Source of the DNA: Ostreococcus lucimarinus
Lineage: Eukaryota
Assembly: GCA_000092065.1 (NCBI GenBank)
Contig: CP000597.1
Direction: 5' to 3' (one strand)
Length of the DNA: 64,000 nt
Position 1 is the stretch's first letter, and each line of letters opens with the position of its first letter. A program made the position numbers and the translations under genes. Below are positions 37,479 through 53,296 of this stretch, piece after piece. The notes beneath the pieces were generated by a model that was given only the letters and a program-made list of their open reading frames with translations, was not told the origin of the DNA and searched no databases.

Positions 37479-37741
37479 GATTGCGTGCGTGTGGATTAGT
37501 GCGGCGCGCGCGCCGCGCGCGCGCGTCGGGGCGGCGCGAGGTGCCGAATGTCCGAATCACGATCGCCCGCCCCTTAAAACGTATTCCAATCGTCTCTACA
37601 ACTATATGATTTCGATTTTGACGGGATAATCTCGACGAGATAAATTCGAGCGCGCGTTTTCGCGCGAATCGTGTGGATTTGCTGACTCGGTGCCGATCAC
37701 GCGAGGGCGTCGGCACTTTCCAGCACGCTTATCTCGAAATC
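37479..37741. promoter_or_regulatory. Shared bidirectional promoter between divergent RBCS copies 1 and 2
   Basis: 263 bp separate the two ATGs (37478 on minus, 37742 on plus). The GC-rich left half contains CCGAATGTCCGAAT at 37544..37557. The AT-rich right half (37568..37650) has TATA-like CTATATGA and GATAA elements. Confidence 0.6.
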
Positions 37742-38633
37742 ATGTCCGCCATCACCCAAGCCTCCGCGCAAGTCGCGAAGACCGTCGCCGTCACCACCGG
37801 CAAGGTCGCCAACGCCAAGTCCATGATGATCTGGCGCCCGCACGGCAACAAGTACGTGAACGCGCGCGCGCGACGGGACGCGAACGTAATCCGAAAAAGC
37901 GACGCGCGCGGATTGCTCGGCCGGTCGTGAAGAAGGGGTCTTCGAGGGGCGCGCGAGGGCGTCGTGACGCGCGCGATGAATGAAAAAGATGCCTGAAGTT
38001 TTTATGCATCGGATCGTCAGCGCGCGGTGGGCGTCGCGCGTCGACGCGAGCGTCGGCACGGGGTTCGAGTGAGCCCCCCCAGGGGGGAGGCCTCCGAGAT
38101 CCATCGTAACCGCCTTCGGAGATTTCTTCTTTAATTTTCCTCGCGACGCGTGGTTGCGCGTTGAAATCGACGGAAAACGATGCACAGAATAATTACTGAC
38201 CCGATTTCGCTTCGTTTTTACGTCGTCACGCAGGATGTTCGAGACCTTCTCCTTCTTGCCGCCGCTCTCCGACGCTGAAATCTCCAAGCAAGTGCAATAC
38301 TTGTTGAACAACGGCTGGACCCCGTGCATCGAGTTCGAAGACTCCGCGCACGCGTACACCGACGGCCACGGCTGGGCGAACATGGACACCTCCATCAACG
38401 CCGGTTACTACGACAACCGTTACTGGGTTATGTGGAAGCTCCCCATGTACGGCTGCCAAAACCCGGATGAAGTCATTGCGGAAATCAACACCTGCATCAA
38501 GTGCTTCCCGGATTGCTACGTCCGCGTCGCTGGCTTCGACAACATCAAGCAAGTGCAATGCTCCGCGTTCTTGGCTCACCGCCCGGCGTCCGAAGCTGCG
38601 TGCGCCGTTGACCAGCGCCAAGTCCAAGGGTAA
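37742..38633 (+). CDS. RBCS: Rubisco small subunit precursor, copy 2. Two exons: join(37742..37851,38234..38633). Intron 37852..38233 (GTACGT…CAG).
   Basis: Same exon structure as copy 1. The mature protein is identical to copy 3 and differs from copy 1 at one residue (CFPDCY versus CFPECY). The last ~45 nt of the intron (…cgatttcgcttcgtttttacgtcgtcacgcag) are conserved in all three copies. Confidence 0.9.
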
Positions 38634-39244
38634 ACGTCTCGACGTTTCCTGCGAACGCCCGCGCGCGTCTGTAGACGCGCGCTGCCGCGGACTCACGCTC
38701 GTGTAGAGATGTAGTCCTATTGAATTACATACGAAGACTTCACGTCACTTCACGCGTTAACGCTTCGCCCTCGCCCTCGCGCGTCGCGCATCTCCGGACG
38801 CTCTCTCTCCCTCTCGCGCGGACCGACCGCCGCGCAGCACACCCGGTCGTAACCGTTCCATTTGACCGTTCCAATCCCTTCTCGAACGCGCGCGAAGATT
38901 TTCCGAGATCGAGGACTCGCCGCGGTTCGCGACTCAAGAAATCTAGATCACGCCGTGAGATCTTCGCCCGCCGTCGTTTCCGCCACACGTTTCCGCGCCG
39001 CCGGGCGAAAATGAGGCTTTAGGGTTTACGCGCGTCGTATGGGCAAACAGTTCGCGAGCACTCTGCGTAGGCCCCCTGAAGGGGGCTTTTTCCTCTATTT
39101 TCTTACATACAGCTTACATAATTTATAATACAGAGAAGATCCCATATAAAGTACATCACGAATACGAATACGAACGCCCTCACAACCCCCTGACGCGCGC
39201 GCCGCCGCGGCCGAGCGACATAATCGCACGCGTATCTCGAGATC

Positions 39245-40364
39245 ATGTCTGCCATCACCCAAGCCTCCGCGCAAGTCGCGAAGACCGTCGCCGTCACCAC
39301 CGGCAAGGTCGCCAACGCCAAGTCCATGATGATCTGGCGCCCGCACGGCAACAAGTACGTATAGTTTACGACGTGTTTCGACGCGATCGCGCGCCGCGTC
39401 CGATCGCGCCGCATCCGACGCCCCGAGGGACGATCGTCGTCGTGTTCGCGCGCGTCCGCGCGCGCGTCGCCGACGCGATCGCGGTCGATCTCTTCGATGA
39501 TTTTCATCGCATCGATCGCGACGCGCGAAAGCGGCGCGCGCGCAACGTGGACGCGTGCGAACCGTCGATCACGGCGCGGTCGCGGGGTGATCGGATAAGC
39601 GCGAAAACCCAAACGCGAAAACCCAAACGGGAACCCGAGCGGGAATTTTCGGGTGTTTGCGTCGAACGGCGCGGCGTTCGACGATTTAGCGTGCGCGATG
39701 ATTTGTGCATCGTCGAGTCGGGCGTCGAGACGTCGAGACGTCGTCGCCGCGCGCGCGGCGGGGTCGGTCGGCGCGCGGATCATCCGTAGATTATCATCGA
39801 CCGGACGATCGGCCGTCGACCGACCTTTGAATGCTCGGCGCGGGAGGGTGTTTCGTACTCGGGTCGGACGCGGTCCACGAGCGACGTCACGGTTGGGCGA
39901 GCGTAGAAGACTCGCGCGAGCGCTGTACTGACCGATTTCGCTTCGTTTTTACGTCGTCACGCAGGATGTTCGAGACCTTCTCCTTCTTGCCGCCGCTCTC
40001 CGACGCCGAAATCTCCAAGCAAGTGCAATACTTGTTGAACAACGGCTGGACCCCGTGCATCGAGTTCGAAGACTCCGCGCACGCGTACACCGACGGCCAC
40101 GGCTGGGCGAACATGGACACCTCCATCAACGCCGGTTACTACGACAACCGTTACTGGGTTATGTGGAAGCTCCCCATGTACGGCTGCCAAAACCCGGATG
40201 AAGTCATTGCGGAAATCAACACCTGCATCAAGTGCTTCCCGGATTGCTACGTCCGCGTCGCTGGCTTCGACAACATCAAGCAAGTGCAATGCTCCGCGTT
40301 CTTGGCTCACCGCCCGGCGTCCGAAGCTGCGTGCGCCGTTGACCAGCGCCAAGTCCAAGGGTAA
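39245..40364 (+). CDS. RBCS: Rubisco small subunit precursor, copy 3. Two exons: join(39245..39354,39965..40364). Intron 39355..39964 (610 nt).
   Basis: Exon 1 is 110 nt and encodes the same transit peptide (atgtctgccatcacccaagcctcc…aacaa|gtacgt). Exon 2 is nucleotide-near-identical to copy 2. Its promoter has TATA-like elements (tttataatacag and ccatataaagtac) at 39120..39150. Confidence 0.9.
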
Positions 40365-40522
40365 ACGTCTCGACGTTTCCTGCGAACGCCCGCGCAAGTC
40401 GACTCAACTCAGTATTATGAAGATTTTTTCCATTTGATTTACGTAGGAAATTGCTTTGTCTGTCATAATGAGATGCATACTTACATATTAAAATGTCCCC
40501 GAATTTCTCGACGCGACTCGGA

Positions 40523-41824
40523 TCAGCGAAGCTCGCCGAGCGCCGCACGCGAGAAGACTGCCCGTGTGCTCTCGTCGCCCGCGCATACCTCTGACGAACT
40601 CGAGTCGTCGGAATTTTTGCTGAAGTCTAATGGTAATGTCAGTTCTAAGTGTCTCTTCGCGCCTGAGTATTTGAATTTGAAATCAAACGTGCGTCGAGAA
40701 CGTTCACGAAGCTCGCGCTTGCCCACGACGGCGGCGCTCGGCGGCGTCCCGGTGGTTACGACCCAACTCCGCGCTCGCTCGACGTCTCGGAGCTGCATCG
40801 TCGCCAACTCGTCCTGGCTTAAAGGCTGAGCTGTGATGGGTTTATGATTCAACCAAACGTTCACGAGGAACGTCACGCGCTTAGACGACTGCGGCGTACC
40901 GCGCGCGAACTCACTCGGGGCGCCGTGCAAGAACCGTCCGTCAAATGTGATTTGCTTCCCCCACTTTGGCCACGAAACGACGCACTCGGTGATATCACCG
41001 CACACCCCGACGTCGCCGTTTTCGTAATCACAATTCACCTTCGTCGGACGGTTCACGACCACCGTCGGCGTCCCTCCGTCGCAAAAGTACGTCACCGTGC
41101 CGAGTTGCGGATGCGCGTTGACGCCCGCGCCCTCGAGGGCGTAGTCTTTGTCCCAGTGCCACCCGATCTCATCACCCTCATCGATGACTTGCGTCCACCA
41201 CTCGGCGCCCGATTTCGAGGGATCATACCTCGCTCTCTCGTCTTCGTCGCGCGCGCCGGCGTCTCGTTCCGCGCGCGCCGCGGCTTCGCGCGTCGCCCTT
41301 CGAAACGTCTCTCGCGCTAAATACTCGAGCGCGCACCTCGGTTCGCTCTCGGCGTTCACCCAAAACGTCCTCCCACTCGACGTCCCGCTCGTCCTTCTCT
41401 TCCCTCTCGCATTTTTCGCCGTGTGCGCCGCCTCGCAATCCTTCGTCAACCGCCTCGCGTCGTCGTCGTCGAGCGCGTCTCGCCCCGCGAACGTCGTCGC
41501 GCTCGTCGTCTCGTACGTCAGGTATCGGTTCACTTCGCACGCGATTCGTCCGAGTTCATCCACCGCGAGTTCGAGCTCGGACGTCGCGCTCGCGTCGTCG
41601 TCGCTCTCGTCGCTCTCGTCGCTCTCGCTCTCGCTCTCGCTCTCGCTCGTCGTCGCCTCGCGCGCGTCGTTCGCGCGCCTCGTCCGTCGCGTCGTCATCC
41701 GCGCCTCGTCGTCGCGTCGTCGACGTCGCGCGTTCGCCGCCCCGCGTCGCGCGCGCCGGTCGCCCGACGCGCGACGGGCGTCGCGCGTTCGCCGCGTCGA
41801 CGGCCGCCGGGCTCGAGCGCGCAA
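40523..41824 (-). CDS. Hypothetical protein with a 2OG-Fe(II)-oxygenase/cupin-like HxD…H arrangement
   Basis: …IGWHWDKDYALEGAGVNAHPQLGTVTYFCDGGTPTVVVNRPTKVN…ITFDGRFLHGAP…RVTFLVNVWLNHKP…. The N-terminus has an acidic SESESESDESDESDDD tract. The first ATG after the low-complexity region is near 41698. Confidence 0.45.
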   Translation of the reverse strand: MRARARRPSTRRTRDARRASGDRRARRGAANARRRRRDDEARMTTRRTRRANDAREATTSESESESESDESDESDDDASATSELELAVDELGRIACEVNRYLTYETTSATTFAGRDALDDDDARRLTKDCEAAHTAKNARGKRRTSGTSSGRTFWVNAESEPRCALEYLARETFRRATREAAARAERDAGARDEDERARYDPSKSGAEWWTQVIDEGDEIGWHWDKDYALEGAGVNAHPQLGTVTYFCDGGTPTVVVNRPTKVNCDYENGDVGVCGDITECVVSWPKWGKQITFDGRFLHGAPSEFARGTPQSSKRVTFLVNVWLNHKPITAQPLSQDELATMQLRDVERARSWVVTTGTPPSAAVVGKRELRERSRRTFDFKFKYSGAKRHLELTLPLDFSKNSDDSSSSEVCAGDESTRAVFSRAALGELR

Positions 41825-41890
41825 GCGGACCCGAATACCACTAAAGCGTAGCGCTGTATACTCATACCCGAATGTCCGAACATCCGCGTG
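41821..41890 (+). promoter_or_regulatory. Conserved 70-bp TATA-containing promoter module, copy A, upstream of the phosphate transporter gene
   Basis: gcaagcggacccgaataccactaaagcgtagcgctgtatactcatacccgaatgtccgaacatccgcgtg. It is about 90% identical to copy B at 44206..44274. It contains TGTATACTCATA and the CCGAATGTCCGAA motif, and ends 240 bp upstream of the PiT ATG. Confidence 0.5.
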
Positions 41891-42129
41891 AAAGTGCTAC
41901 ACTTTGTCAGGAAAATGTCGATTCACAGTCGATTCACAGTTGATGAACATTGCAACAAGTTGCAAAAATCGAGTTCGATTGGAACCAATCGCGTCTTCTT
42001 TCGAGGTTCACGAACCGTGAATTCGTTCCGCGAGGAATATTCTCGGAATCTCGCCTTTTCAAATTCCCGCGTGGGAATATGCGCAGTCGCCGCAAGAACA
42101 CGTCGCGCGCCGTCTCGTCACGCACAACG

Positions 42130-43879
42130 ATGAGCTCTTCGGATGCGCTCGCTCAAGCGTCCCGCCACCTTTTGGCCGGCGCTACTGAAACCAAGAGATT
42201 CGAATGGATCGTCGTTTGCGGCGGTTTCCTCGCCTTCTTCGCCGCCTTTGGCATCGGTACGCACACGATGCGCGCACTTTTTACCTTTCGCGTTCATAGG
42301 CTTTAATGACACGGCTTGGTCGCACACGTGCGATTGGAGTGTATTAGAAGCATCACTGACGTCGTGCGATCAATCGTATTTACCTACAGGTGCCAACGAC
42401 GTCGCGAATGCGTTCGCCACCTCTGTCGGGTCCGGCGCGTTGACCATTAAAAACGCTGTAGTCCTCGCCGCGATCTTTGAATTCTGTGGTGCCATGTTCA
42501 TGGGCGGTCACGTCGTCAACACAATTCGCAAGGGCATTGCTAACCAGAAATGCTTCGCCGGTACCGGTGGTGCCAACGATCCCGGCCTCTTGATGTACGG
42601 CTGCCTATGCGTCATTTTTGCCGTCGCCATCTGGCTCGTCGTCGCATCTGCCTTCGAAATGGCCGTCTCCACGACGCACTCGTGCGTTGGTGGTATGATT
42701 GGAATGACTTTGGTCGCGCGTGGTAGCGAGTGTGTCATTTGGACCAAGAAAGCGGACGAATTCCCGTACGTCAAAGGCGTCGTCGCCGTCATCATCTCCT
42801 GGCTCTTGTCCCCGGTCATCTCTGGCGCCTTTGCGTTCGTCTTCTTCGTGACCCTGCGTACTCTCGTCATGCGTTCCGAACATTCTTATTCTCGTACTGC
42901 CGTCGCGTTCCCAGTGTTGCTTGCGTGCACTCTCATCATCAACATCTTCTTCATCGTGTACAAGGGCGCCAAGTTCCTTGAGCTCGACGACACACCGGTC
43001 GGTACGGCGTGCGCCATCGCGTTCGGCATCGGCGGAGGATGTGGCATTGTTGCGTACTTCTTCGTTACCCCTTACATCCTCAAGACGACCGATGAGCTCT
43101 TCGAGAAGCAACAGCTCGAAAAGGCGGAGCGTGGTTCGGGCAAGAAGGCCGAAGAGAAGGTCGTCCGTCAACCGCGCGAGTATCCTGTCGGGGTCTTTGG
43201 CGCGCCGCGTCGCATGTGGTACGCTCTGCAAGATCATCTTGAATCTTCACTCACCCACAAGGCTGAAGACATTCTTGACGAAGACATGGCTGTATTGGCG
43301 ATCCACGAAAACGCCGAAAAGTTTGACGAAAAGACTGAACTTTGCATGCGATACTTGCAAATCCTCACCGCGTGCTGCGACTCGTTCGCGCACGGCGCCA
43401 ACGATGTGGCCAACTCTATCGGTCCCTTCGCCTCTATGGTAGTCGTCTTCAAGAGCGGTAAAGTTTCGAAGGAAGCTGAAATGGGCGACGATTCATATTG
43501 GATTCTCGGTCTTGGCGCTGCCGGCATCGTCTGTGGCCTCGCCTTGTACGGCTACAAGATTCTTCACGCTCTCGGTACCAAGATTGCCAAGCTCACCCCG
43601 AGTCGCGGTATCTGCATCGAGCTTGGTGCGGCTTGCGTCATCATCATGGGATCCCGTCTCGGCTGGCCGCTGTCTACCACTCACTGCCAAGTTGGTGCCA
43701 CCGTCGGCGTCGCCCTACTCGAAGGCCGCAAGGGCATCAACTGGTTCATCATCGGTAAAACTGTGTTCGGCTGGATCATCACCCTCGTCATCGTCGGCTT
43801 CTCCACGGCGGCGTTCTTCGCACAAGGTGCCTACGCTCCGATGAAGAGCTACCCGTGCTACATCACAGGTAGTTGCTAA
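42130..43879 (+). CDS. PiT/PHO4-family Na+/H+-coupled inorganic phosphate transporter. Two exons: join(42130..42256,42390..43879). Intron 42257..42389.
   Basis: Exon 1 encodes MSSSDALAQASRHLLAGATETKRFEWIVVCGGFLAFFAAFGIG and ends …ATCG|gtacgc. Exon 2 begins after …tacctacag|GTGCCAACGAC and restores the PiT signature GANDVANAFATSVGSGALT (phase-1 intron). A second PiT repeat GANDVANSIGPFAS lies near the C-terminal half. The track splits the gene into ORFs 41950..42306 and 42143..43879. Confidence 0.9.
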
Positions 43880-44205
43880 ATGGGCCCTCCTAGCTTACCC
43901 CCTCCCTAGGTTACCCCCGACGGAGTTATTCTTTGAATACTCTCGGTGTTTTTCCCGCTATTGATAGCGATGAGATTCTCGACAAATTCGCGTTCAGTGG
44001 GGTCTGAAAATTTGCCGTCGCCCACGAGAGCGTCGAATTGCTCCGCCAACGTCCGTCGAATTGCTCCGCCAACGTCAGCGATGGCGCGCCTGTGCGAGAG
44101 AATTCAGACTCAACAATACTTCGCGCGCGCGCTGTTTTGGTTCCAACCGGAGCCGCACGGATCAATTGCACACCGCGTAATCGCCCTGAGTGGTATCGAT
44201 ACCAC

Positions 44206-44274
44206 GCAAGCGGACCCAAATACCACTAAAGCATAGTACTATATACTCATATCCGAATGTCCGAACATCCGCGC
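44206..44274 (+). promoter_or_regulatory. Conserved 70-bp TATA-containing promoter module, copy B, upstream of the PNPOx-like gene
   Basis: gcaagcggacccaaataccactaaagcatagtactatatactcatatccgaatgtccgaacatccgcgcg. It contains CTATATACTCATA, a TATA box, and CCGAATGTCCGAA. It ends about 95 bp upstream of the ATG at 44369. Confidence 0.5.
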
Positions 44275-44368: not shown

Positions 44369-45607
44369 ATGGCGACGACGACGACCCCGCGCGTCGCGAC
44401 GACGGGCGCGCGGGCGGCGCGAGGCCGACGCGCGAGGACGGAGGCGACGCGCGCGAACGCGACGGCGACGCGCGCGACGGGACGACGCGCGAACGGGACG
44501 GCCGCGAGGGACGCGCGAGCGAAAAGCGCGGGAAAGGACGACGGCGCGAGCGATCAGGGAGGGTCGAGCGGCGTGGAAAGGGAGACGCGCGCGCGACGGA
44601 CGCCGAGCGCGCGAGAGAGCGCGATGGAGGCGGCGGCGGCGCGCGAGGCGGAAAACGCGGGGATGAAGCCGTCGTCGAGCGGGGAGACGGCGACGCGGAC
44701 GGTGAAGGACGAGGCGCTGGAGATACCGTTTCAGAGCACGAGTCCGAGGAAACGGGTCGGGCGAACGCGGTTGTTGCGGACGCCCATGGCGGGGGGGGTG
44801 GTGAGCCGAGACACCAAGGATAGCAACTTGCCCTCGATGGCGACGGCGGCGAGAAACTTGATGGAACTCGCGGATTACGGCGATTTGAGCACGACGATGA
44901 GCGACATGCATCATCGTCGCGCTGGGTACCCGTTCGGAAGCACGGTGGACTTCGCGACGGACGCCACGGGGCATCCAATCTTTTGCCTGGCGCCGCTCGC
45001 GATTCACACGCGCAACATCGCCGCCGACGGCAAGTGCTCGTTGACGGTGAAGATGAGCGGTTGGGGCGGGTTGGCGAACGCCAGGGTGACGATATTCGGC
45101 GACGTTCAGCGCTTGCCCAACGGAGAGTATCAAACGGCGGCGAACGAAATCTTCAAGTCCAAGTATCACGCGCGCAAGGAAGCCATCGACATGGAGGATC
45201 GCTGGGGCGACTACACGTATTATCGCATGAATCGCATCGTCGACGTGTACTTCGTCGGTGGGTTCGGAACGTTGAACTGGATCAAGCTCGACGAGTACTG
45301 CTCGACGTCCCCCGACACGATCGTCACCGCCGCGCACGGTAAGAGCGTCATCGAAACCTTGGGCGAGCTCAACACGCGCTTCTCCCAGCGTCTCGCCGCG
45401 CACATGGGCAATCTCTTGGACCTCGTCGTGGACGATTTATGGATCATCTCCATCGATCGTCGCGGTATGGACGTTCGCGTGCGCACCGACGGCAGCTCGT
45501 TGATTCGCAGAATCTCTTTCGACACCGACGTCGAGTGTTTCGACGACGCCAAGCGCGCCGTCGAGTGCGCGTTGACCAACGACGACCTCTGTCGCGGCGA
45601 GTTCTGA
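44369..45607 (+). CDS. Pyridoxamine 5'-phosphate oxidase-like FMN-binding split-barrel protein (plant At3g03890/GluTR-binding-protein-like), plastid-targeted
   Basis: The T/A/R-rich transit peptide is followed by …AARNLMELADYGDLSTTMSDMHHRRAGYPFGSTVDFATDATGHPIFCLAPLAIHTRNIAADGKCSLTV…, which matches the PNPOx-like fold. The start is an ATG at 44369. Confidence 0.6.
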   Translation: MATTTTPRVATTGARAARGRRARTEATRANATATRATGRRANGTAARDARAKSAGKDDGASDQGGSSGVERETRARRTPSARESAMEAAAAREAENAGMKPSSSGETATRTVKDEALEIPFQSTSPRKRVGRTRLLRTPMAGGVVSRDTKDSNLPSMATAARNLMELADYGDLSTTMSDMHHRRAGYPFGSTVDFATDATGHPIFCLAPLAIHTRNIAADGKCSLTVKMSGWGGLANARVTIFGDVQRLPNGEYQTAANEIFKSKYHARKEAIDMEDRWGDYTYYRMNRIVDVYFVGGFGTLNWIKLDEYCSTSPDTIVTAAHGKSVIETLGELNTRFSQRLAAHMGNLLDLVVDDLWIISIDRRGMDVRVRTDGSSLIRRISFDTDVECFDDAKRAVECALTNDDLCRGEF

Positions 45608-45745: not shown

Positions 45746-47011
45746 ATGACGTCACCGCCCCGCCCGACGATCCAACCGCCGACGTCACGCCGCGCCGCAC
45801 TCGCGCGCGCGAACGAACGCCGACGCGACGAACGACGTGAGCGAACGACGCGAGCGATGGAAGAGTTCACGTCCGCGTTAATCTACGCCCCCGCCAAGGC
45901 GTTCGGCGACGGCGACGCCGCGCGCGACGTGCGCGCGCGCGTGCGATGCGCGCGCGCGATGCACGCGACGTCATCGTCCGCGGTGACGATCGCGGACGGC
46001 GTCGCGAACGGCGCGGCGATGAGCGCCGGAACGACGCCGCGGACGAAGGCGAAAGTGAACGCGCGCGACGCGCGACGCGTCGTGCGATGCGCGGCGGTCG
46101 GGGACTGGATCGTCGCGGCGAGCGGGACGGACGCGCGCGCCGTCGGGACGACGCTGGCGGAGGCGCGCGCGAGCGCGGAGGGCGGCGCGGCGCGCGTGGA
46201 GGCGATTCGAGACGCGCTTCGACGGGTGACGACGAAGGAAACGACGACGCCGTTTGCGGTGATCGCGTTCGACGGCGCGACGAAGCGCGGATTCGCGGTG
46301 AGACACAAGGACGGGCTTCGGACGAGGTACGGGCACGACGAGCGAGGCGCGCTCGTGCTCGCGCTCGGGGACGACTTTGAGAACGGCGATGCGTTGGAAG
46401 AGCTGTGCGCGGGGAGATTCATCTTCGGACACGGCTACGTCAAGCCGATGGAGTACGGGGCGTTCTGGAAGAGCGCCAAGAGCACTCGCGCGGGGTCGCC
46501 CGCCAAGGCGGCGCACGGCGAGGCGAGATCCGTCCCGCGCTCGCCTCTGGGCGTCGTCAAGACGAACGCGCCGCGCGCGGAAGCGAGCGCGCGCGCCTCT
46601 TCGCCGAACGCGTACGTGCCGCCGGCGCGTCGCGCGGCTTTGGCTGAAGAAAAGAGACGAGAGGAGGAAGCGCGCAGAAAGAGCGAAGCCGTCGATCGGG
46701 CGCTCGCGGAAACCCTGCAAAACCAAGAGCGCGTGGCGTCGGCGCTCGGCGGTGCGCTCGCGAGCGCGCTCATGAAGGCGGTGTCTCGCGCGAGCTTCTC
46801 CAAGGACGAGAGCATGAACGAAGTCTCTCGATTCCACGCCGCTCGATTGAGCCGCCAAAACATCGAGGCGGCGTCGAGCTTCTACGCTCCCGCCGCGCCG
46901 GCGTCGACCGCGCCGCGAGTCGCCTCGCGAGCGTCCATCGACTCCTGCGCTCGTCTCTCCATCGAAAGCCATCGCGAATCGATGGAATTCCTCCGTCGCG
47001 CCGCGTGCTGA
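45746..47011 (+). CDS. Hypothetical protein
   Basis: A 421-aa ORF from the ATG at 45746, with a coding-like central region (…RFIFGHGYVKPMEYGAFWKSAKS…). No family recognised. Opposite-strand ORFs here are low-complexity. Confidence 0.4.
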   Translation: MTSPPRPTIQPPTSRRAALARANERRRDERRERTTRAMEEFTSALIYAPAKAFGDGDAARDVRARVRCARAMHATSSSAVTIADGVANGAAMSAGTTPRTKAKVNARDARRVVRCAAVGDWIVAASGTDARAVGTTLAEARASAEGGAARVEAIRDALRRVTTKETTTPFAVIAFDGATKRGFAVRHKDGLRTRYGHDERGALVLALGDDFENGDALEELCAGRFIFGHGYVKPMEYGAFWKSAKSTRAGSPAKAAHGEARSVPRSPLGVVKTNAPRAEASARASSPNAYVPPARRAALAEEKRREEEARRKSEAVDRALAETLQNQERVASALGGALASALMKAVSRASFSKDESMNEVSRFHAARLSRQNIEAASSFYAPAAPASTAPRVASRASIDSCARLSIESHRESMEFLRRAAC

Positions 47012-47089
47012 GACGCGTCGCCGCTACGATTTAAACGCCGCCGCCGCTTTGTAACAACACGATTCTGCATTTACTATTACTACGCTCTA

Positions 47090-48598
47090 CTACTGCCCCA
47101 AGTGCACGCGCGTCGGGGCGACGTCGCCCTCGATTCGAAACGTCGTGTACTGCCGGAGTTGACGCAAGAAGTCCTCGCTCGCCTCGGGCGACGGCGAAGG
47201 CACGCGCGCGCGATCGCGAGCTCTCACCTCGCCGATGTAAAACTCTTTCAGGTACAAGAACGACTCGCGGCTGGAGTGATACATCTCGAAATGTCGCGCG
47301 GCGTCCATGTCGAGCGATTGTTTTGGGATGATGGTGTCCCCACCCGGGTGCTCGTTCAACCATCGCTTGACGTCCAAGACCATTCCGTCGATGACGAGCC
47401 AGACGCCTCCCGCGGCGTTGTGCGCGACGACTTCGTCCCAATCGTACTCGCGTATCCTCGAACCGTACGCCCCGAGCTTTTCGGCGCAGTATTCTTCGAG
47501 CGAACGGCATTCTAAAACCTCGGCCGCGCGCGCGAGCGCTTCGGTGACGCGAATGTCGAACGCGGGCGGAGGTTGCCCGGTGGCCGCTCGCTCGAGGAAA
47601 ATCAACGCTCGATCGAAGACGTCGGTGTCGATGTCGACATCCGCGCTCACGAATTCATCGGCGTCGTCCTCGCCGAGCTCTCCCGCGCGTCGAACCGCGG
47701 ACGTCAACGCTATGCACTGCCGAAGCAGACGCCTATTCACCGGAAACGTCTCGCCGTCTTTGGTGCGCACCTCGATCACTTCGCGCCGAGCCAATCGCAC
47801 CGAGCGCGCTTTGCCTTCATTATTCGCGATTCTCAACGAATTTTCGTCGCTCGAGCGCACGTAGAACGTCGTCTCAGCGTTTACGCGCGCGCGAAAGCAG
47901 TGATAGCCCAACGTCGCCGCTTCCTCTTCGCACGTCTTTGAGTTGACGTCGGCGACGCGCGCTCGATACGTCGACCCGTCGATGTCGAGCACGAACACCT
48001 CGGACGTCGTCAACACGCGACCGAGCTCTCCGAAGTGCGCCCTCATCGCGCGTCTCGCGACCTCGCTCTCGATTTCTCGCTCGTCGTCGTCGTCGTCGTC
48101 GTCGTCTCGAACGCGCGAGAGCTCCATCGCGACGTCCACCGCGTCGTCCACCTCGCTCGCCTCCACCGCCTCGAATTCCGCGTCGTTATCCAGCGCCAGT
48201 CGCATGTTGTGCCGCATCGCTCGTGTCATCGCCACGCATCCCACCGGGACGTCTCGCGACGGTTCGAATCGCACCGTCGACCCGCCCAACGCGGCGCCTC
48301 GTCTCGCGAACCGCCGAAGCGCGTCGTCTCGCGTCGCCGTCTCGCGCAGCCCTTCGTGCACGCGCGCCGCGCTCGACGTCGACGTCGCGTCGTCCGCGTC
48401 GTCATCGCTCGCGATCACTCGCAATCGCGCGCCTCGTCGCGCGTCGTCCGCGCGCGCGCCGGTCGCGTCGTCGTACCGCACGCGGTCGCCGAAACTCACG
48501 AATCGATCGCTCGCGGTCGGTTTTTCGTCATCCAGGGCGCGTCGGGAGACGCCCGCGGTCAGCGTGTTCGGCCCGCGCGGGAGTTTGAAGTTTACCAT
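47090..48598 (-). CDS. Cytochrome b5 heme-binding-domain protein with a long N-terminal region
   Basis: The C-terminal domain is YDWDEVVAHNAAGGVWLVIDGMVLDVKRWLNEHPGGDTIIPKQSLDMDAARHFEMYHSSRESFLYLKEFYIGEV. It shows the HPGG signature with H-P-G-G and a downstream His. The start is an ATG at 48598. Confidence 0.65.
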   Translation of the reverse strand: MVNFKLPRGPNTLTAGVSRRALDDEKPTASDRFVSFGDRVRYDDATGARADDARRGARLRVIASDDDADDATSTSSAARVHEGLRETATRDDALRRFARRGAALGGSTVRFEPSRDVPVGCVAMTRAMRHNMRLALDNDAEFEAVEASEVDDAVDVAMELSRVRDDDDDDDDEREIESEVARRAMRAHFGELGRVLTTSEVFVLDIDGSTYRARVADVNSKTCEEEAATLGYHCFRARVNAETTFYVRSSDENSLRIANNEGKARSVRLARREVIEVRTKDGETFPVNRRLLRQCIALTSAVRRAGELGEDDADEFVSADVDIDTDVFDRALIFLERAATGQPPPAFDIRVTEALARAAEVLECRSLEEYCAEKLGAYGSRIREYDWDEVVAHNAAGGVWLVIDGMVLDVKRWLNEHPGGDTIIPKQSLDMDAARHFEMYHSSRESFLYLKEFYIGEVRARDRARVPSPSPEASEDFLRQLRQYTTFRIEGDVAPTRVHLGQ

Positions 48599-49397
48599 CG
48601 CCGGAAACCGACGACGGCGACGAGACGACGCGATGCGGAGTGACGATTACAATCGCGTCGCGGCGAGCGCTCGCGGCGCGTCAACCGACGCCGAGGCGCG
48701 TCACGGAATCAATCCGCGTCGATCGTGCAGACCGACCATCGCGGCGCACGATTTCGCGTAAACGTCGTCGAACGACGCCGCGATGTCCGCGTTCAAGGTC
48801 TCGGCGCGTCTGACGCGCCTCGACGGCGCGGCGCCGCCGCCGCCCGCGCGTCGAGCGCGGCGGCGCGCGGCGTCCAGATACCCGACGGACACGCGCGCGT
48901 GCGCCGCCTCCGCGCTCGCGGGATCGGCGTGCGCGCGCCGGAAAAACGTCGTCGCCATCGCGCACCTGGCCGTGAACTCGCGAACCTCCCTTTCGTCGTC
49001 GCCTTCGCCTCGGCCGTCGCCTCGGTCGTCCCGCTCGACCGCGCTCGACCGCGCGAGCTCGACGACGCGATCGAGCAGCACCGCGCGCGCGCGCGCGGTG
49101 ATGGGCGCGATCGACGACGCCGCGTCCGCCGTCGCCGTCGTCGTCGTCGTCGCCGTCTCGTCCGCCGTCTCGTCCGCCGTCGCCGGTCGTCCCATCACCG
49201 CGCGCAGGACGGCGCGATACGACGCGCGCGCGAGCGCGACGGACGCGCGCGACGCCCTCGGCGCGCGCGCGAGCGGCATCGACGCGTCGGCGTCGATCTA
49301 CGACGGCATCGAGCCCGCGATCCGCGATCGATCGTCGACGACGCGCGCGCGTGTGCGGCGAATCGGCGCGGCGCGGCGTCACTCGACGTCGCGCGCG

Positions 49398-50183
49398 ATG
49401 GCGCGCGACGACGACGACGACGGCGACGTCGACGCGACGCGCGCGAACGCGCCGAACGTCGACGCCGACGCGCGCGCCGGCGACGGGGCGACGGAGGCGG
49501 ACGCGGCGCGCGAGCGCGAGGAAAGACGGCGCGCGTCGACGAGACGTTGGTTGGATTTCGTGCACTCGAAGGCGTTCAGAGATGAAGTGAGCGACGTGTT
49601 CGCGCGCGCGAGTGCGGTGCACAGAGACGACGGCGTGATGGATTGCACGGAATTGCAGTTCGCGATCGATTTGCTGCACGAACGATTGCGCGAGAAAGGG
49701 GCGAACGGGCACGCGATGCCGAGGGGACCGCGAGCGGGACGGCGCGAGGCGCGCGAGCTCTTGCGCGACTTTGATTTGGACAGAGACGGCGCGCTGGACG
49801 AGCGAGAGTTTCACTTGTTGTGTCAAAGGTATTTCAGTAGATTAGAGTGGCCGATGTGGCGCGTGTTCACGCGAGGGGCGACGATCGGGTTGGCGCTGTA
49901 CGCCGCGCACGAGCTGTGGATTTCGCCGTTGGCCCAAAACGTGTACTGGAATCACTTTTACCCGAAAATCGTGCAAAGGCTCAAGAAGAGGTATCAGAAG
50001 CGGTACGCGGGGCGCGTGAACACGTTTTTGAAGAAATTCCGCCGACCGCCCAAGAAGGAAGAGCTGCTGGAGCTCGAGCGAATCGCGCAGGAGGAGTTGA
50101 AGAAGAAACGGATTCGAAGAATCAAAGCCGCCGCGAGCGCCAGCGTCATCGGCGGAACGACCTCGGCGTTGGGGATACTTTAG
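49398..50183 (+). CDS. Hypothetical EF-hand-like motif membrane protein
   Basis: DFDLDRDGALDEREFHLLCQRYF is an EF-hand-like loop. It is followed by the TM segment GATIGLALYAAHELWISPLAQNVYW and a basic tail. The first ATG of the ORF (track start 48783) is at 49398. Confidence 0.45.
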   Translation: MARDDDDDGDVDATRANAPNVDADARAGDGATEADAAREREERRRASTRRWLDFVHSKAFRDEVSDVFARASAVHRDDGVMDCTELQFAIDLLHERLREKGANGHAMPRGPRAGRREARELLRDFDLDRDGALDEREFHLLCQRYFSRLEWPMWRVFTRGATIGLALYAAHELWISPLAQNVYWNHFYPKIVQRLKKRYQKRYAGRVNTFLKKFRRPPKKEELLELERIAQEELKKKRIRRIKAAASASVIGGTTSALGIL

Positions 50184-50341
50184 CGCTCGACGTGTCGACG
50201 CTTTTAGGAGCGACGCGTTTTATTTCATGTATTGAAGATATTTCATGTATTGCAGTGAAGGGTGATGAAAGACTGGTCGCGCCCGCCGAAGCGAGACGCG
50301 ACTTCTGGTTTTGAGCGTCGCGCGCGCGAAGCAATCCTATG

Positions 50342-52915
50342 TTAAACGTTGTGCACCACGTACGAGCTCTTGAACGCGGTGGTACCGCTCTTCCGAGACT
50401 TGTGCAACGCGATGGAGCCAACGATGACGCCAGCGAGGGCGACGATGAAGCTAATCGCCGCGAGCGCCTCCGCGGCGCGAATTTCCTTTGTGGACACGCC
50501 TCCCGAGCTGAGACCGTGCACGTGCGCCACCAAATCGGCGTAGCTCGTGCTGGAGAATTCCGTCTTGATGTCGCAGTGGACGTGATACGCTTTGTGGTAT
50601 TGGCCGAGTTCGGAGTCGGTGAAACCAAACACGCCCTTCAAGTTGGCGATGGCGGTGCAATAGTTGTCGTAGGCCCACGTACCGCGCGCGGGCGCGGTGC
50701 GCACGTCGAATAGCGCGTCGAAGAATTGGTACGCATCCGAGAACGTCGACGTACCCTTGGCCTTGACGTCGCCCGCGATGACGCGGTACAACGCCTGGCC
50801 CTCGGCTTGGTCGTCCCCGTACGCCGCGACGGCGCCGCTCTTGAGCGCCGTGTCAATCTTGAACGCGTACTTGATGACGCACTGAGAGTACACGATGCGC
50901 AGTTGCCTTTCGATGCCCTCGTAAATGTTGTGGAGGTCGGTGCAGTCCTTCTGTTCTTGCCCCGAGCGCAACAGCTTCAGGATGGTCTCGTACGGCTTCG
51001 CCGTGTGCGCCGTGCCCATGGTGCCGAACTCGACGCCGCGCTTTTGCGCGCGACCCATGACGGAGTGGTAGCCGTCGCCGATGAGCAGCGCCGCGGCGAC
51101 GTCCCACGCAGCCTCTTGATCCGCAGACTTTTGATTGTTCACGCACACCGTGGAGCTTTGAGCATAACTCAAGTGATTGAGCGCGGCGTGGAAGCCGACG
51201 GCGTCCAACATCGTCTTTTCAATCATTTCTTTGGCCGCTTCGTGATAATTTTTACCGCTCTTCGCGAGCGTCACGGCCTCGGCGATGTAACCTGAAAGCG
51301 GCGTACCCGTAGCCGCATGTTTGCCCGACGACCCCACGGCAACCTTGGTGAATTCGTACTGCGTCATACGCGGGTTCCATTCGTTCGACGTGTACGGCGC
51401 GGTTTCGGTCCACGCCTTGTACGCTTCCACGAAATCAGACGACATGTCATCCCAAGAGGCGCTGACGTCTTCGTTGCGAATGAACGTGTCCATCTCGGCG
51501 ACGATGTGCGCCACGTTCTTGCTCAAGCCCAACGCCTTTGCGTACTGCGTCTTCGCGCTCACGGTGGCTTGCGCGGTGCTGCTGTGCGTGAGTTCTGACG
51601 TGAAGTACGAGCCGGCGAGAGACTTGAGCTCTCTGGCCGGATCCTCGTTCGTTTCCAACGCGCAGTTCACGTAAGCGGCGTCGGAGTACGTGCCGAGCGA
51701 CGCCTCCTTGACGCCGTGAGAAGACATCGTGTTGATGAAGTCGACGACGTGCGTCCTGGCGGTGCAATAATTGCCGTAATCCCAGGTGCCTCTCTGCTTT
51801 GAGATTTCGATGTCAAAGAAGGTATTGAAGAACCCAACGGCACCACTGCAAGCGGTCGCGCACTTACGAAGCATGTCACCGGCGATGACGCGGTACATCG
51901 CCTGACCTTCCGCGACGATGTCGTCGTAGGCGTTGACGGATGCCCCGGACGCGAGCTTCTTGTCAATCTTGTATGCATACTTCAAGATGGATTGCGCGTA
52001 CACCACCCGCATCTGCGCTTCGATGTCTTCGTAGATGTTGTGCAAATCAGCGCACATGTCGTTCGTGCCCTCGATTTCTTGACCGTCTCGTAAGAGTTTG
52101 ACGATGGTTTCGTACGGCTTGGAGATGCCCGCCGCGCCCATGGTGCCGAACTCGAGCCCACGCTTTTGCGCGCGCCCCAAGACGGAGTGATATCCATCAC
52201 CGATGAGTAACGCGGCGGCGACGTCCCAATGCGCCTTCATAGCGTCGGTTTGAGAGCTACCCGTGCACAAGCTGCCGGCACCCACGTCTTCTTGCGCCGC
52301 CGCCAACGCCAACAGCGAGCCTTGATAGCCGACGGCGTCCCAGACGGTCTTTTCGATGATTTCGCGCATCGCCTCGAGCCTGGTTCCGGCCGTATCCGCT
52401 TTCGCGATAACCACCGCCTCGGCGATGTACGCCTCCAACGGATTAGCGACAGCAGTCACGCCATTGATGCCGCGCAAGACCTTCGGAGTGGAAATCCAAG
52501 TCCACTCGTTGGACGTCGTTGCATAGTTGGCGACGGCGTCCTCGACCCAAGTCTTCGACATCGAGTCGTAATTCGTATCCATTTTGTCCCAATTATCAGA
52601 GCTGTTCGTGAACGTGCGAAGCTCGGCGATGATGTGCGCGACGCTGTTCCCGTAGTCGAGCGCGTTTTCAATACTCGTGTGCGCGTTGCCGCCGTTCACT
52701 GATTCCGTCGTCGTACTCAACGTATTGAGCTTGTAGCTCCCCGCCAGCGTCGAGATGTGCGTCAGTGCGTTCGCACCGACGCCGCACGCGCTCATCACCC
52801 CCATCGCCGCGATCGTCGCCCGCTTCGTCGCGCGTCGCCCTCGCGCGCATCGCCCCCGCCTCGCGTCCCCGTCGTCGTTCTTCTTCCCCGTCGCGTCTCC
52901 CGCGCGTCGCGCCAT
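50342..52915 (-). CDS. FEA1/ISIP2a (phytotransferrin)-like iron-assimilation protein with an internally duplicated ~330-aa domain, signal peptide and C-terminal TM anchor
   Basis: There are two homologous halves. The motif HWDVAAALLIGDGYHSVLGRAQKRGLEFGTMG in the first half and WDVAAALLIGDGYHSVMGRAQKRGVEFGTMG in the second are near-identical. A C-terminal TM, AISFIVALAGVIVGSIALH, follows. The architecture fits algal Fea1/ISIP2a-type ferric uptake proteins; the family assignment is from memory. Confidence 0.55.
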   Translation of the reverse strand: MARRAGDATGKKNDDGDARRGRCARGRRATKRATIAAMGVMSACGVGANALTHISTLAGSYKLNTLSTTTESVNGGNAHTSIENALDYGNSVAHIIAELRTFTNSSDNWDKMDTNYDSMSKTWVEDAVANYATTSNEWTWISTPKVLRGINGVTAVANPLEAYIAEAVVIAKADTAGTRLEAMREIIEKTVWDAVGYQGSLLALAAAQEDVGAGSLCTGSSQTDAMKAHWDVAAALLIGDGYHSVLGRAQKRGLEFGTMGAAGISKPYETIVKLLRDGQEIEGTNDMCADLHNIYEDIEAQMRVVYAQSILKYAYKIDKKLASGASVNAYDDIVAEGQAMYRVIAGDMLRKCATACSGAVGFFNTFFDIEISKQRGTWDYGNYCTARTHVVDFINTMSSHGVKEASLGTYSDAAYVNCALETNEDPARELKSLAGSYFTSELTHSSTAQATVSAKTQYAKALGLSKNVAHIVAEMDTFIRNEDVSASWDDMSSDFVEAYKAWTETAPYTSNEWNPRMTQYEFTKVAVGSSGKHAATGTPLSGYIAEAVTLAKSGKNYHEAAKEMIEKTMLDAVGFHAALNHLSYAQSSTVCVNNQKSADQEAAWDVAAALLIGDGYHSVMGRAQKRGVEFGTMGTAHTAKPYETILKLLRSGQEQKDCTDLHNIYEGIERQLRIVYSQCVIKYAFKIDTALKSGAVAAYGDDQAEGQALYRVIAGDVKAKGTSTFSDAYQFFDALFDVRTAPARGTWAYDNYCTAIANLKGVFGFTDSELGQYHKAYHVHCDIKTEFSSTSYADLVAHVHGLSSGGVSTKEIRAAEALAAISFIVALAGVIVGSIALHKSRKSGTTAFKSSYVVHNV

Positions 52916-53030
52916 CGTTCTCTCGTTTCGCGCGCGCGTTCGCGTCGCGTCGCTCGCCGTTCGTTCGCTCGCGCGCTCGTCCGTCGCGGTGTGTCGCCGC
53001 GCCGCCGCGCCGTCGCCGTCGCCGCGATAT

Positions 53031-53070
53031 CGGGTTTATCGCGAGATGGCGCGCCATCTCGCGATAAACC
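53031..53070. promoter_or_regulatory. Perfect 40-bp palindrome (20+20) in the bidirectional promoter between the FEA1-like gene and the DUF4281 gene
   Basis: ggtttatcgcgagatggcgc|gccatctcgcgataaacc. The two arms are exact reverse complements, and the centre is a GGCGCGCC (AscI-like) site. It lies 116 bp upstream of the FEA1-like ATG at 52915. Confidence 0.7.
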
Positions 53071-53296
53071 AATCATTCGGACATTCGTCATTGGGTTCAC
53101 GCGCGTCACAATGCGTCCCGTCGATCTCGCGTTTCGATTGGTTCGCGCGAGATCGAGCTCGTCGCTTTCGTTCGACGTCGGACGACATCGGACATTCGGA
53201 CACGCGATCCTGACGCGCGATTCTGACACACGGATCGCATCGCGCGCGTCGCGTCGCGTCGAGGCGCGTTCGTCGAGGCGCGAGTGCGCGGCGTCG

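What the first reader, a model, noticed from the sequence alone, without database searches (positions are those of the whole stretch)
37544..53200. Recurrent promoter motif CCGAATGTCCGAA, found five times in 64 kb and always within 100-300 bp upstream of a start codon
The core CGAATGTCCGA occurs upstream of five start codons:
- 37544..37557 (plus), 185 bp upstream of RBCS copy 2 and inside the bidirectional RBCS promoter.
- 41868..41880 (plus), 250 bp upstream of the phosphate transporter.
- 44253..44265 (plus), 104 bp upstream of the PNPOx-like gene.
- 53076..53087 and 53188..53200 as the reverse complement, i.e. forward relative to the minus-strand FEA1-like iron-uptake gene, 160-285 bp upstream of its ATG at 52915.

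An 11-mer is expected about 0.03 times by chance in 128 kb of two-strand sequence, so five occurrences, all promoter-proximal and all oriented with a downstream gene, is strongly non-random. The downstream genes (Rubisco small subunit, Pi transporter, Fe-uptake protein, plastid flavoprotein) are highly expressed and light- or nutrient-responsive. The motif may therefore be a core-promoter or TSS element, or a binding site for a nutrient- or light-responsive factor. I could only find occurrences by eye, so more may exist.
Basis: seen in the sequence. Interest (0 to 1): 0.7.

Follow-up and report, generated by a model that had tools for sequence, protein, structure and literature searches.

The report
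Conserved promoter motif in Ostreococcus
A 13-base sequence, CCGAATGTCCGAA, really does recur in a few promoters of the tiny marine green alga Ostreococcus lucimarinus and stays letter-perfect in related species while the DNA around it changes, so it is most likely a binding site for an unidentified gene regulator rather than a general promoter signal.

Summary
CGAATGTCCGA occurs exactly five times at the stated places (0.06-0.16 expected). It is the most over-represented non-tandem 11-mer in the window, and all copies lie between genes.

Only four copies are independent. The copy upstream of PHO4 sits in a ~70-nt duplicate of the CREG/HOZ-like promoter module. It arrived with a strain-polymorphic 2.4-kb PHO4 insertion.

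The window is the end of a small chromosome of Ostreococcus lucimarinus CCE9901. In other Ostreococcus lineages the core is exactly conserved in three orthologous promoters while flanks diverge or become unalignable: RBCS<->RBCS, ORF397<->CREG and FEA1<->ABA4. Its orientation relative to CREG flips between species. Its 8-bp unit CCGAATGT varies in copy number among strains.

It is rare: 4 of about 25-30 intergenic regions here, none in other loci of relatives, absent in Bathycoccus. That argues against a general core-promoter or TSS element. Its ATG does not open a conserved uORF.

Best reading: a gene-specific transcription-factor site built of 8-bp-phased CCGAA/CGAAT half-sites. The factor and the signal are unknown. 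This is a new member of a known kind, of moderate interest.

The parts
37544..37556 (+). Motif copy CCGAATGTCCGAA (followed by a third partial unit, CCGAATCA) in the 263-nt divergent RBCS(-)/RBCS(+) promoter. It lies 66 nt from the RBCS(-) ATG (37478) and 186 nt from the RBCS(+) ATG (37742).
   Evidence: The core is exactly conserved in the divergent RBCS pair of another lineage with unrelated flanks (L183 1088-1098).
41817..41886 (+). Copy A of the ~70-nt promoter module (block GGACCCGAATACCACTAA, then TGTATAC, then the motif at 41868-41880). It is a recent duplicate of the CREG promoter module, lying at the left junction of the PHO4 insertion.
   Evidence: It is absent in L135/L145, which carry PHO4, and the whole stretch 41823-44210 is absent in L136, L142/143 and L146.
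44207..44271 (+). Copy B, the ancestral ORF397/CREG promoter module. It consists of a conserved block GGACCCAAATACCACTAA, a TATA-like TATATAC (44240-44246) and the motif CCGAATGTCCGAA (44253-44265), 104 nt upstream of the CREG/HOZ-like ATG at 44369.
   Evidence: The motif is invariant in L136 and expanded to 2.6-3.6 units in other strains. The 19-mer CCGAATGTCCGAACATCCG is the only non-low-complexity match with the orthologous intergenic region of L152, where it is inverted. L197 also has it inverted.
53057..53091 (-). 35-nt block ATGACGAATGTCCGAATGATTGGTTTATCGCGAGA holding motif copy 5 (core 53077-53087) and an inverted CCAAT box. It lies 161 nt upstream of the ATG (52915) of the 857-aa FEA1-like gene.
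   Evidence: It is the longest invariant stretch (apart from a one-base A indel) in an intergenic region that is only 57% identical to L136.
53187..53199 (-). Motif copy 4, CCGAATGTCCGAT, followed by degenerate units (GTCGTCCGACGTCGAACG). It lies 98 nt from the ABA4-like ATG (53297) and 272 nt from the FEA1-like ATG.
   Evidence: It is conserved in L135 but not in L136, so it is the least constrained copy.
424..484 (-). Degenerate sixth module: CCAATCGT-CGAATCGT-CGAATCGC (484->461), then 12 nt, then CCGTTTGTCCGAACATCG (448->431), then CATATAT (430->424).
   Evidence: It resembles the CREG 19-mer with AA->TT. Its (CGAATCGN) arrays resemble those in the RBCS promoters of L173/L176/L177/L192. The gene downstream runs off the window, so this is not verified.

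Best explanation
CCGAATGTCCGAA is a gene-specific cis-regulatory element, most likely the binding site of a sequence-specific transcription factor. It acts on double-stranded DNA in a small set of Ostreococcus promoters.

It is built of direct CCGAA/CGAAT half-sites phased 8 bp apart (unit CCGAATGT). A factor with two tandem DNA-binding domains, or a head-to-tail dimer, would contact two or more half-sites.

It sits 55-190 nt upstream of start codons, next to TATA-like and CCAAT elements. It works irrespective of orientation in shared (divergent) promoters: RBCS<->RBCS, ORF397<->CREG/HOZ-like and FEA1-like<->ABA4-like. Gain or loss of 8-bp units by replication slippage changes the number of half-sites between strains.

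**Shown:**
- non-randomness;
- intergenic location;
- exact cross-species conservation against diverged flanks;
- the orientation flip;
- unit-number polymorphism;
- rarity.

**Inferred:**
- that a protein binds it;
- the half-site model;
- the class of factor (a GARP/Myb-related protein is a guess, from the CGAAT half-site);
- the physiological signal.
For: **Non-randomness**
- 5 copies against 0.06-0.16 expected; top non-tandem 11-mer in the window.
- All 4 independent sites lie in promoter-containing intergenic DNA. Intergenic DNA is about 17% of 34.7-54.3 kb (gene map), so the chance of this is about 1e-3.

**Conservation in a closely related lineage (L136)**
- In L136 the intergenic DNA is only 57-60% identical to the window.
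- The motif lies inside the longest invariant block upstream of FEA1.
- Upstream of CREG it is itself an invariant 13-mer.

**Conservation in more distant lineages**
- L152-154 (CREG 80% aa): the 19-mer CCGAATGTCCGAACATCCG is the only non-low-complexity similarity between the orthologous ORF397/CREG intergenic regions, and it is inverted.
- L197: the same element, inverted, with different flanks.
- L180/183/186/187 (RBCS exon 85.9% nt): exact core in the middle of the divergent RBCS pair, 95 nt upstream of an RBCS ATG, with unrelated flanks.
- L179 and L198: one-mismatch versions at the same distance.
- L004 (PHO4 77% aa, GC 53%): exact TCCGAATGTCCGAA next to TTTATATAAAAA in the Coq4<->PHO4 intergenic region.
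- Chance expectation in the 317 kb of RBCS loci is about 0.15.

**Half-site and phasing**
- Strains carry 1.6, 2.6 or 3.6 units. L146 reads CCGAATCG-CCGAATGT-CCGAATGT-CCGAAC.
- RBCS promoters that lack the exact motif carry (CGAATCGN)x3 at the equivalent place.

**Not an RNA or coding feature**
- Rfam and ARAGORN find nothing; folding z-scores are -0.3 to -1.3.
- The motif's ATG opens ORFs of 3-188 codons with no conserved peptide. Two of them would overlap the main ATG out of frame.
- The 8-nt indel polymorphism is not a multiple of 3.
Against: - No binding, expression or TSS data were available, so function is inferred from conservation alone.
- All copies are exact or nearly so, and there are no degenerate variants in 64 kb. 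That is unusual for a typical transcription-factor site.
- The generalised half-site pattern CGAAYNNNCGAAY is not enriched (7 against 3.7 expected).
- Copy 53188 is not conserved in L136.
- The FEA1 orthologue of the 61%-identity lineage has no motif in 22 kb (L137).
- CREG promoters of L156/157 and of Bathycoccus have none either.
- All window copies lie within 16 kb of one another, so local sequence spread (duplication or gene conversion) contributed at least once, as the PHO4-side copy shows.
- The genes involved have no proven common regulation.
- No genome-wide scan could be run.
Confidence: 0.6

Rival explanations
1. A strand-specific core-promoter element that positions initiation between a TATA-like box and the TSS.
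For: An AT-rich, TATA-like hexamer lies 0-17 nt from the motif in several cases:
- TATATAC, 6 nt upstream, in the CREG module.
- TAATAT, about 10 nt upstream, in L183.
- TTTATATAAAAA, adjacent, in L004.
- TTAAAA, 17 nt away, in the RBCS promoter.

This would put a TSS at or just 3' of the motif. Every copy is 'sense' to some gene within about 300 nt.
Against: - It is present in only about 4 of 25-30 intergenic regions of the window, and in none of the roughly 30 other promoters in L137, L156, L158 and L003.
- Its orientation relative to the TATA-like element is mixed (2 against 2).
- It is inverted relative to CREG in L152 and L197.
- The TATA-like element is lost in L146 while the motif is kept and extended.
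- The motif-to-ATG distance ranges from 66 to 326 nt.
Confidence: 0.12
2. A selectively neutral, slippage-prone short repeat (an 8-bp minisatellite seed) spread locally by duplication or gene conversion among neighbouring subtelomeric promoters, with no function of its own.
For: - One copy demonstrably arose by duplication of a 70-nt module together with the PHO4 insertion.
- Unit number varies among strains.
- All window copies lie within 16 kb of one another, 11-27 kb from a telomere.
- There are no degenerate variants.
Against: - Apart from the duplicate pair, the copies share nothing beyond the 11-13-nt core.
- The core is exact in orthologous promoters of lineages whose flanks are unalignable.
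- It lies in the longest invariant blocks of intergenic regions that are 57-60% identical.
- A neutral 13-mer would not survive that divergence at three separate loci.
Confidence: 0.12
3. An RNA-level element in 5'UTRs: either a uORF start (the motif contains an ATG: CCGA-ATG-TCC-GAA) or a protein- or small-RNA-binding site that controls translation or stability.
For: - The motif contains an ATG, and all five window copies are sense to a downstream gene.
- Exact conservation of 11-13 nt resembles a base-pairing target.
Against: - The ORFs opened by the ATG are 3, 9, 23, 29, 95 and 188 codons long and share no peptide beyond MS(E/D).
- Two of them (CREG in the window, RBCS in L183) would overlap the main start codon out of frame, which would be costly for highly expressed genes.
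- The element is inverted relative to CREG in L152 and L197.
- No structure signal and no Rfam hit.
Confidence: 0.05

Closest known systems
GARP/Myb-related factor sites of the green lineage: LUX binding site GATWCG (=CGWATC), P1BS GNATATNC (PHR1/PSR1), NIGT1/HRS1 GAATC (recalled from the literature, not tested here)
   Same: - The half-site CGAAT/CCGAAT contains the GAAT core typical of GARP sites.
- Variant units CCGAATC(A/G) (window 37552; L146; arrays in L177) match CGAATC, the reverse complement of the LUX site.
- True P1BS sites (GAATATTC) occur in the PHO4 promoters of three species.
   Different: - The predominant unit CGAATG is not GATWCG.
- The half-sites are direct repeats phased 8 bp apart, not a palindrome.
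- 11-13 positions are invariant, far more than in the 6-8-bp GARP sites.
- No binding data exist.
Yeast Rap1-type site (13 bp, two direct ACACC hemisites 8 bp apart, each read by one Myb-like domain; found in promoters of the most highly expressed genes). An analogy recalled from the literature.
   Same: - The geometry is 5+3+5 = 13 bp, with two direct half-sites 8 bp apart.
- It occurs in a minority of promoters, including very highly expressed genes: RBCS, and the FEA1-like gene, whose O. tauri counterpart is among the most strongly expressed genes (PMC4855317).
- It works in either orientation.
   Different: - The sequence is unrelated.
- There is no evidence that a tandem-Myb protein binds it.
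- Rap1 sites are degenerate and numerous, whereas this motif is exact and rare.
- The resemblance is one of mechanism only, not of family membership.
Classical plant RBCS light-responsive elements (I-box GATAAG, G-box CACGTG, GT-1 box II GGTTAA) and the Ostreococcus/plant evening element AAAATATCT
   Same: It is a short conserved element in RBCS promoters of a green-lineage organism. It could be diel- or light-linked.
   Different: The motif contains none of these sequences. It is shared with non-photosynthetic-type genes (FEA1-like, ORF397).
CCAAT/NF-Y boxes of bidirectional promoters
   Same: - The motif is found in divergent promoters, in either orientation, tens of nt upstream of the TSS.
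- CCAAT/ATTGG boxes lie within about 40 nt of the motif at FEA1 copy 5 (both sides), in the window RBCS promoter, in L197 and in L198.
   Different: The motif itself is not CCAAT. It is far rarer and lineage-restricted (absent in Bathycoccus).

Membership tests
General core-promoter element (TATA/Inr-type) | Present in a large fraction of promoters of the genome | tested here: not met
   The motif occurs in 4 of roughly 25-30 intergenic regions in the window. It occurs in none of the other promoters in L137 (22 kb), L156 (14 kb), L158 (11 kb) or L003 (10.7 kb).
General core-promoter element (TATA/Inr-type) | Fixed orientation and fixed distance relative to the TSS | tested here: inconclusive
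   No TSS data were available. The orientation relative to CREG flips in L152 and L197. The distance to the nearest ATG ranges from 66 to 326 nt.
Transcription-factor binding site (cis-regulatory element) | Located in non-coding promoter DNA and conserved in orthologous promoters beyond the neutral background | tested here: met
   The core is exact in three orthologous promoters across lineages whose flanks are 57-60% identical or unalignable.
Transcription-factor binding site (cis-regulatory element) | Bound by a sequence-specific protein, with mutation changing expression | not testable with these tools
   This needs EMSA, DAP-seq or reporter assays.
P1BS (PHR1/PSR1 site GNATATNC) | Palindromic GNATATNC sequence | tested here: not met
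   The motif lacks it. Genuine GAATATTC/GAATATGC sites lie elsewhere in the PHO4 promoter (42035-42042, 42075-42082) and in L003 and L004.
LUX binding site (GATWCG) | Hexamer GATWCG / CGWATC | tested here: inconclusive
   The main unit is CGAATG, which does not match. Variant units CGAATC do match: window 37553-37558, L146, the (CGAATCGN)3 arrays in L173/176/177/192, and window 461-476.
Transposable element / MITE / dispersed repeat | Copies share an extended sequence with terminal repeats or target-site duplications | tested here: not met
   Only the pair 41817-41886 / 44207-44271 shares more than the 13-nt core. The other copies have unrelated flanks.
Structured non-coding RNA / tRNA-derived element | Match to a known RNA family or a significant conserved fold | tested here: not met
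   ARAGORN found 0 genes. Rfam found 0 matches at gathering score and only a chance hit at E=4. Folding z-scores were -0.3 to -1.3.
Upstream ORF | Conserved reading frame or peptide starting at the motif's ATG | tested here: not met
   the lengths are 3-188 codons, no peptide is conserved, and two overlap the main ATG out of frame. The 8-nt unit polymorphism shifts the frame.

The most novel reading that the evidence does not exclude
The (CCGAATGT)n array may be the docking platform of an Ostreococcus-specific transcription factor. That factor would co-drive a handful of the cell's most strongly expressed or environmentally regulated nuclear genes: the RBCS pair, the Ot-FEA1 iron-uptake orthologue, and a plastid HOZ-like heme-degrading enzyme. 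Strain-to-strain gain and loss of 8-bp units would act as a natural 'promoter microsatellite' that tunes their output.

If so, this would be the first concrete cis-element for the iron and diel transcriptional control that PMC4855317 describes as completely unknown in Ostreococcus.
Probability: 0.2. Interest if true: 0.6.

Novelty: new member of a known kind. Interest (0 to 1): 0.4.

Why it matters
Ostreococcus is a transformable model picoalga with a minimal set of transcription factors and very short promoters. Very few of its cis-elements are known.

PMC4855317 states that nothing is known about how its iron responses are regulated. It also reports Ot-FEA1 as one of its most strongly expressed and most iron-induced genes.

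A 13-bp element shared by the FEA1 orthologue, the RBCS genes and a heme-related gene, and conserved across species, is a direct bait for finding the factor by DAP-seq or one-hybrid screens. It is also a candidate building block for synthetic promoters.

The evidence covers only a few promoters, and the kind of object (a promoter motif) is ordinary. The finding is therefore useful rather than surprising.

Tried and rejected
**RNA gene or permuted tRNA**
The 70-nt repeat first looked tRNA-like. ARAGORN, Rfam (both gathering and E-value modes) and folding gave nothing.

**Collection scans**
- The 14-mer TCCGAATGTCCGAA in viral contigs returned more than 120 single chance hits. A 14-mer scan of metagenomes would have been swamped in the same way.
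- The one metagenome scan was therefore spent on RBCS relatives.

**Organism**
I first guessed Micromonas from the GC content and the CGCG-rich sequence. That was wrong. An exact protein match identifies Ostreococcus lucimarinus CCE9901.

**Generalised half-site pattern**
CGAAYNNNCGAAY is not enriched in the window.

**uORF reading**
Rejected.

**Literature**
Seven searches found no description of the motif. The supplements of PMC4855317 held no entries for the neighbouring O. tauri genes.

**Pfam for the 857-aa protein**
No hit even at E<5.

**Genome-wide enrichment test**
Not possible.
Full report
**1.

CGAATGTCCGA occurs exactly five times in the window, at the coordinates given. The 13-mer CCGAATGTCCGAA is exact at 37544, 41868 and 44253. 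It has one mismatch at 53076 and at 53187 on the minus strand.

Dinucleotide shuffles expect 0.16 copies. A 4th-order Markov model expects 0.059 (p=5.6e-9 among 51,612 11-mers). The motif is the highest-ranking over-represented 11-mer that is not a tandem or low-complexity repeat. The 9-mer GAATGTCCG occurs nowhere else in the window.

**2. Where we are**

The window is GC-rich (63%). It ends in (TTTAGGG)23 at 63840-64000. One of its ORFs (34723-36339) is letter-for-letter XP_001422164.1 of Ostreococcus lucimarinus CCE9901, on a 366-kb record. So this is the end of a small chromosome of that alga.

The gene map around the motif comes:

| Gene | Strand | Coordinates / notes |
|---|---|---|
| RBCS | - | ATG 37478 |
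| RBCS | + | ATG 37742 |
| RBCS, third copy | + | about 39250-40364 |
| ORF397 | - | 40523-41716; real gene, 51% aa identity to its counterpart in L152 |
| PHO4 | + | 42130-43879 |
| CREG/PNPOx-like | + | 44369-45607; database names: 'putative heme iron utilization protein', plant 'non-canonical heme oxygenase HOZ' |
| 857-aa gene | - | 50342-52915 |
| ABA4-like | + | ATG 53297 |

The 857-aa protein has no Pfam hit. It does have an internal duplication. It also sits in the HSP20-MgtE-Myb-ABA4 neighbourhood. Both features fit the Ot-FEA1 of O. tauri (ostta18g01980). [quoted passage not shown]

**3. Five copies, four events**

The copies at 41868 and 44253 lie in a 66-70-nt direct repeat (41817-41886 / 44207-44271). 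The two arms are about 90% identical, and all differences are transitions.

Comparison with near-identical metagenomic contigs shows that window 41823-44210, which carries PHO4, is missing in L136, L142/143 and L146. In those strains ORF397(-) and CREG(+) are direct divergent neighbours with a single module. L135/L145 has PHO4 but lacks the upstream module copy.

The 2-kb PHO4 unit (41985-43961) also occurs next to low-GC DNA (L006-L008). The copy 'upstream of the phosphate transporter' is therefore a by-product of a recent, polymorphic insertion. It is not an independent promoter element of PHO4.

PHO4 promoters in the window and in two other species share something else: GAATATTC-type (P1BS-like) sites.

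**4. The orientation argument carries no weight**

The RBCS site, the two FEA1/ABA4 sites and the ancestral ORF397/CREG site all lie in divergent intergenic regions. Any orientation is 'sense' to one neighbour.

**5. The motif is conserved far beyond its surroundings**

In L136 the intergenic DNA is only 57-60% identical to the window.
- The FEA1-proximal copy lies in the longest invariant block of its intergenic region: ATGACGAATGTCCG(A)ATGATTGGTTTATCGCGAGA.
- The CREG copy is an invariant 13-mer between diverged flanks.
- The second FEA1 copy (53188) is not conserved there.

In more distant lineages:
- **L152-154** (CREG 80% aa): the 19-mer CCGAATGTCCGAACATCCG is the only non-low-complexity similarity between the orthologous ORF397/CREG intergenic regions (E=1e-6). 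It is inverted.
- **L197**, a further lineage: the same element, inverted again, with different flanks.

A scan of JGI metagenomes for RBCS relatives gave 80 loci and 317 kb.
- In a lineage with 85.9% nucleotide identity in the RBCS exon, the exact core lies in the middle of the divergent RBCS pair. It is 95 nt upstream of one RBCS start codon, and its flanks are unrelated (L180/183/186/187).
- Two other lineages have one-mismatch versions at the same distance (L179, L198).
- A 95.6% lineage has it exactly (L171).
- About 0.15 chance hits are expected in that much sequence.

L004 (PHO4 77% aa) carries TCCGAATGTCCGAA immediately next to TTTATATAAAAA in its Coq4<->PHO4 intergenic region.

The motif is absent near CREG in L156/157 (rearranged synteny), in Bathycoccus (L159) and in all RBCS lineages at or below 82% identity. 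It is also absent from the 22-kb locus of the 61%-identity FEA1 relative (L137).

**6. Anatomy**

The 13-mer is 1.6 copies of an 8-bp unit, CCGAATGT.
- Most natural strains carry CCGAATGTCCGAATGTCCGAAC in the CREG promoter (2.6 units).
- L146 carries CCGAATCG-CCGAATGT-CCGAATGT-CCGAAC.
- The window RBCS copy continues with CCGAATCA.
- RBCS promoters of the lineage that lacks the exact motif carry three (CGAATCGN) units 63-93 nt upstream of an RBCS start.
- At the left edge of the window, a similar array precedes a degenerate copy, CCGTTTGTCCGAACATCG, and a CATATAT box.

The recurring feature is thus a CGAAT/CCGAA half-site repeated in 8-bp phase. However, the loosened pattern alone is not enriched in the window. 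TATA-like hexamers lie 0-17 nt away in several cases, and CCAAT boxes within about 40 nt in several others.

**7. What it is not**

- **Not an RNA gene or a tRNA relic**.
- **Not a transposon.** Only the duplicated pair shares flanks.
- **Not a uORF.** The ORFs opened by its ATG range from 3 to 188 codons and share no peptide. Two would overlap the main start out of frame. The 8-nt unit polymorphism is incompatible with coding.
- **Not a general core-promoter or TSS element.** It occupies about 4 of the window's 25-30 intergenic regions. It occupies none of the other promoters sampled in relatives. Its orientation relative to CREG and relative to the nearby TATA-like boxes is not fixed.

**8. 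Most likely mechanism (inference)**

The motif is most likely an orientation-independent binding site for a sequence-specific factor that reads two or more direct half-sites 8 bp apart. It would serve shared promoters of a small gene set: the RBCS pair, ORF397/HOZ-like and FEA1-like/ABA4-like.

The 5+3+5 geometry recalls Rap1-type tandem Myb recognition. The CGAAT half-site recalls GARP-family sites (LUX GATWCG, P1BS, NIGT1). Both are resemblances recalled from the literature, not tests.

RBCS and Ot-FEA1 are among the most highly expressed genes, so a role as a strong-promoter or diel element is plausible. It is untested. I give the transcription-factor-site reading a probability of about 0.6.

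**9. Novelty**

No paper in the searchable library mentions the sequence, or any promoter motif of this kind, in Ostreococcus or Micromonas. It is a new member of a familiar kind of object.

Its value is practical. It offers a bait for the unknown regulators of a model picoalga, and a natural example of unit-number variation inside a conserved promoter element.

**10. Limits**

No genome-wide scan, TSS map, expression data or binding data were available. Conservation was assessed in three promoters only. The taxonomic labels of the metagenomic relatives are inferred from sequence identity.

Noticed in passing
window 41823-44210; loci L006-L008, L135, L136, L142, L146: The PHO4 gene lies in a 2.4-kb segment that is present or absent among near-identical strains. 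Its 2-kb core (41985-43961) also occurs next to low-GC (43-49%) DNA carrying Fip1/RFC1. That is the arrangement seen in the more distant L004 (Coq4-PHO4-Fip1). This looks like a recent duplicative insertion of PHO4 from a low-GC (outlier-chromosome-like) locus into the ORF397/CREG promoter. Some metagenome contigs may be chimeric across the repeat.
   Followed up: partly
window 42035-42042 and 42075-42082; L003 about 38-150; L004 about 3545-3715: GAATATTC / GAATATGC (P1BS-like, GNATATNC) sites lie 48-95 nt upstream of the PHO4 start codon. They recur in the PHO4 promoters of two other species. They are a better candidate than the motif for phosphate-starvation control.
   Followed up: partly
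L142-L144 and L146-L150 (equivalent to window 44253-44265): The 8-bp unit CCGAATGT varies in number among natural strains (1.6, 2.6 or 3.6 units) in the CREG/HOZ-like promoter. The reference window has the shortest allele.
   Followed up: yes
window 36615-37071, 38201-38634, 39909-40365: There are three RBCS copies, one inverted. Their second exon and 3' region are 100% identical over 434-457 nt, while their upstream regions differ. This suggests ongoing gene conversion. Only the divergent pair has the motif; the third copy's upstream region (38634-39250) has none.
   Followed up: partly
window 53033-53070: A perfect 38-nt palindrome, GGTTTATCGCGAGATGGCGCGCCATCTCGCGATAAACC, lies directly next to motif copy 5. 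L135 and L136 have only its left half, so the palindrome is specific to the reference strain.
   Followed up: no
window 57045-57177: A perfect tandem duplication of a 66-nt unit. The alignments of L135 and L136 to the window break and overlap at 57111, which suggests that those strains carry a single copy.
   Followed up: no
window 63840-64000: Plant-type telomere repeat (TTTAGGG)23 at the end of the window. All motif copies lie 11-27 kb from the chromosome end.
   Followed up: no
window 50768-51106 and 51875-52228: There is an internal duplication (about 72% nt identity) in the 857-aa protein, which has no Pfam hit. This is consistent with the 'duplicated Fea1 domain' of O. tauri Ot-FEA1 (PMC4855317). 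Only 44 protein clusters in the 5.8-billion-sequence database resemble it, and all are metagenomic.
   Followed up: partly
L159 10001-12476 (Bathycoccus prasinos): In Bathycoccus the CREG/HOZ-like gene lies directly beside a canonical heme oxygenase gene (PF01126), close to coproporphyrinogen oxidase and a cytochrome-b5 gene. This supports a heme-related role for the window gene at 44369-45607.
   Followed up: no
L177 739-761; L173, L176, L192; L158 1730-1755; window 20074-20119: Other short phased repeats occur in promoters of relatives: (CGATTCGT)3 upstream of RBCS, and (CCGAA)5 upstream of CREG in L158. There is also an unrelated (GGCTATC)6.6 microsatellite in the window.
   Followed up: partly
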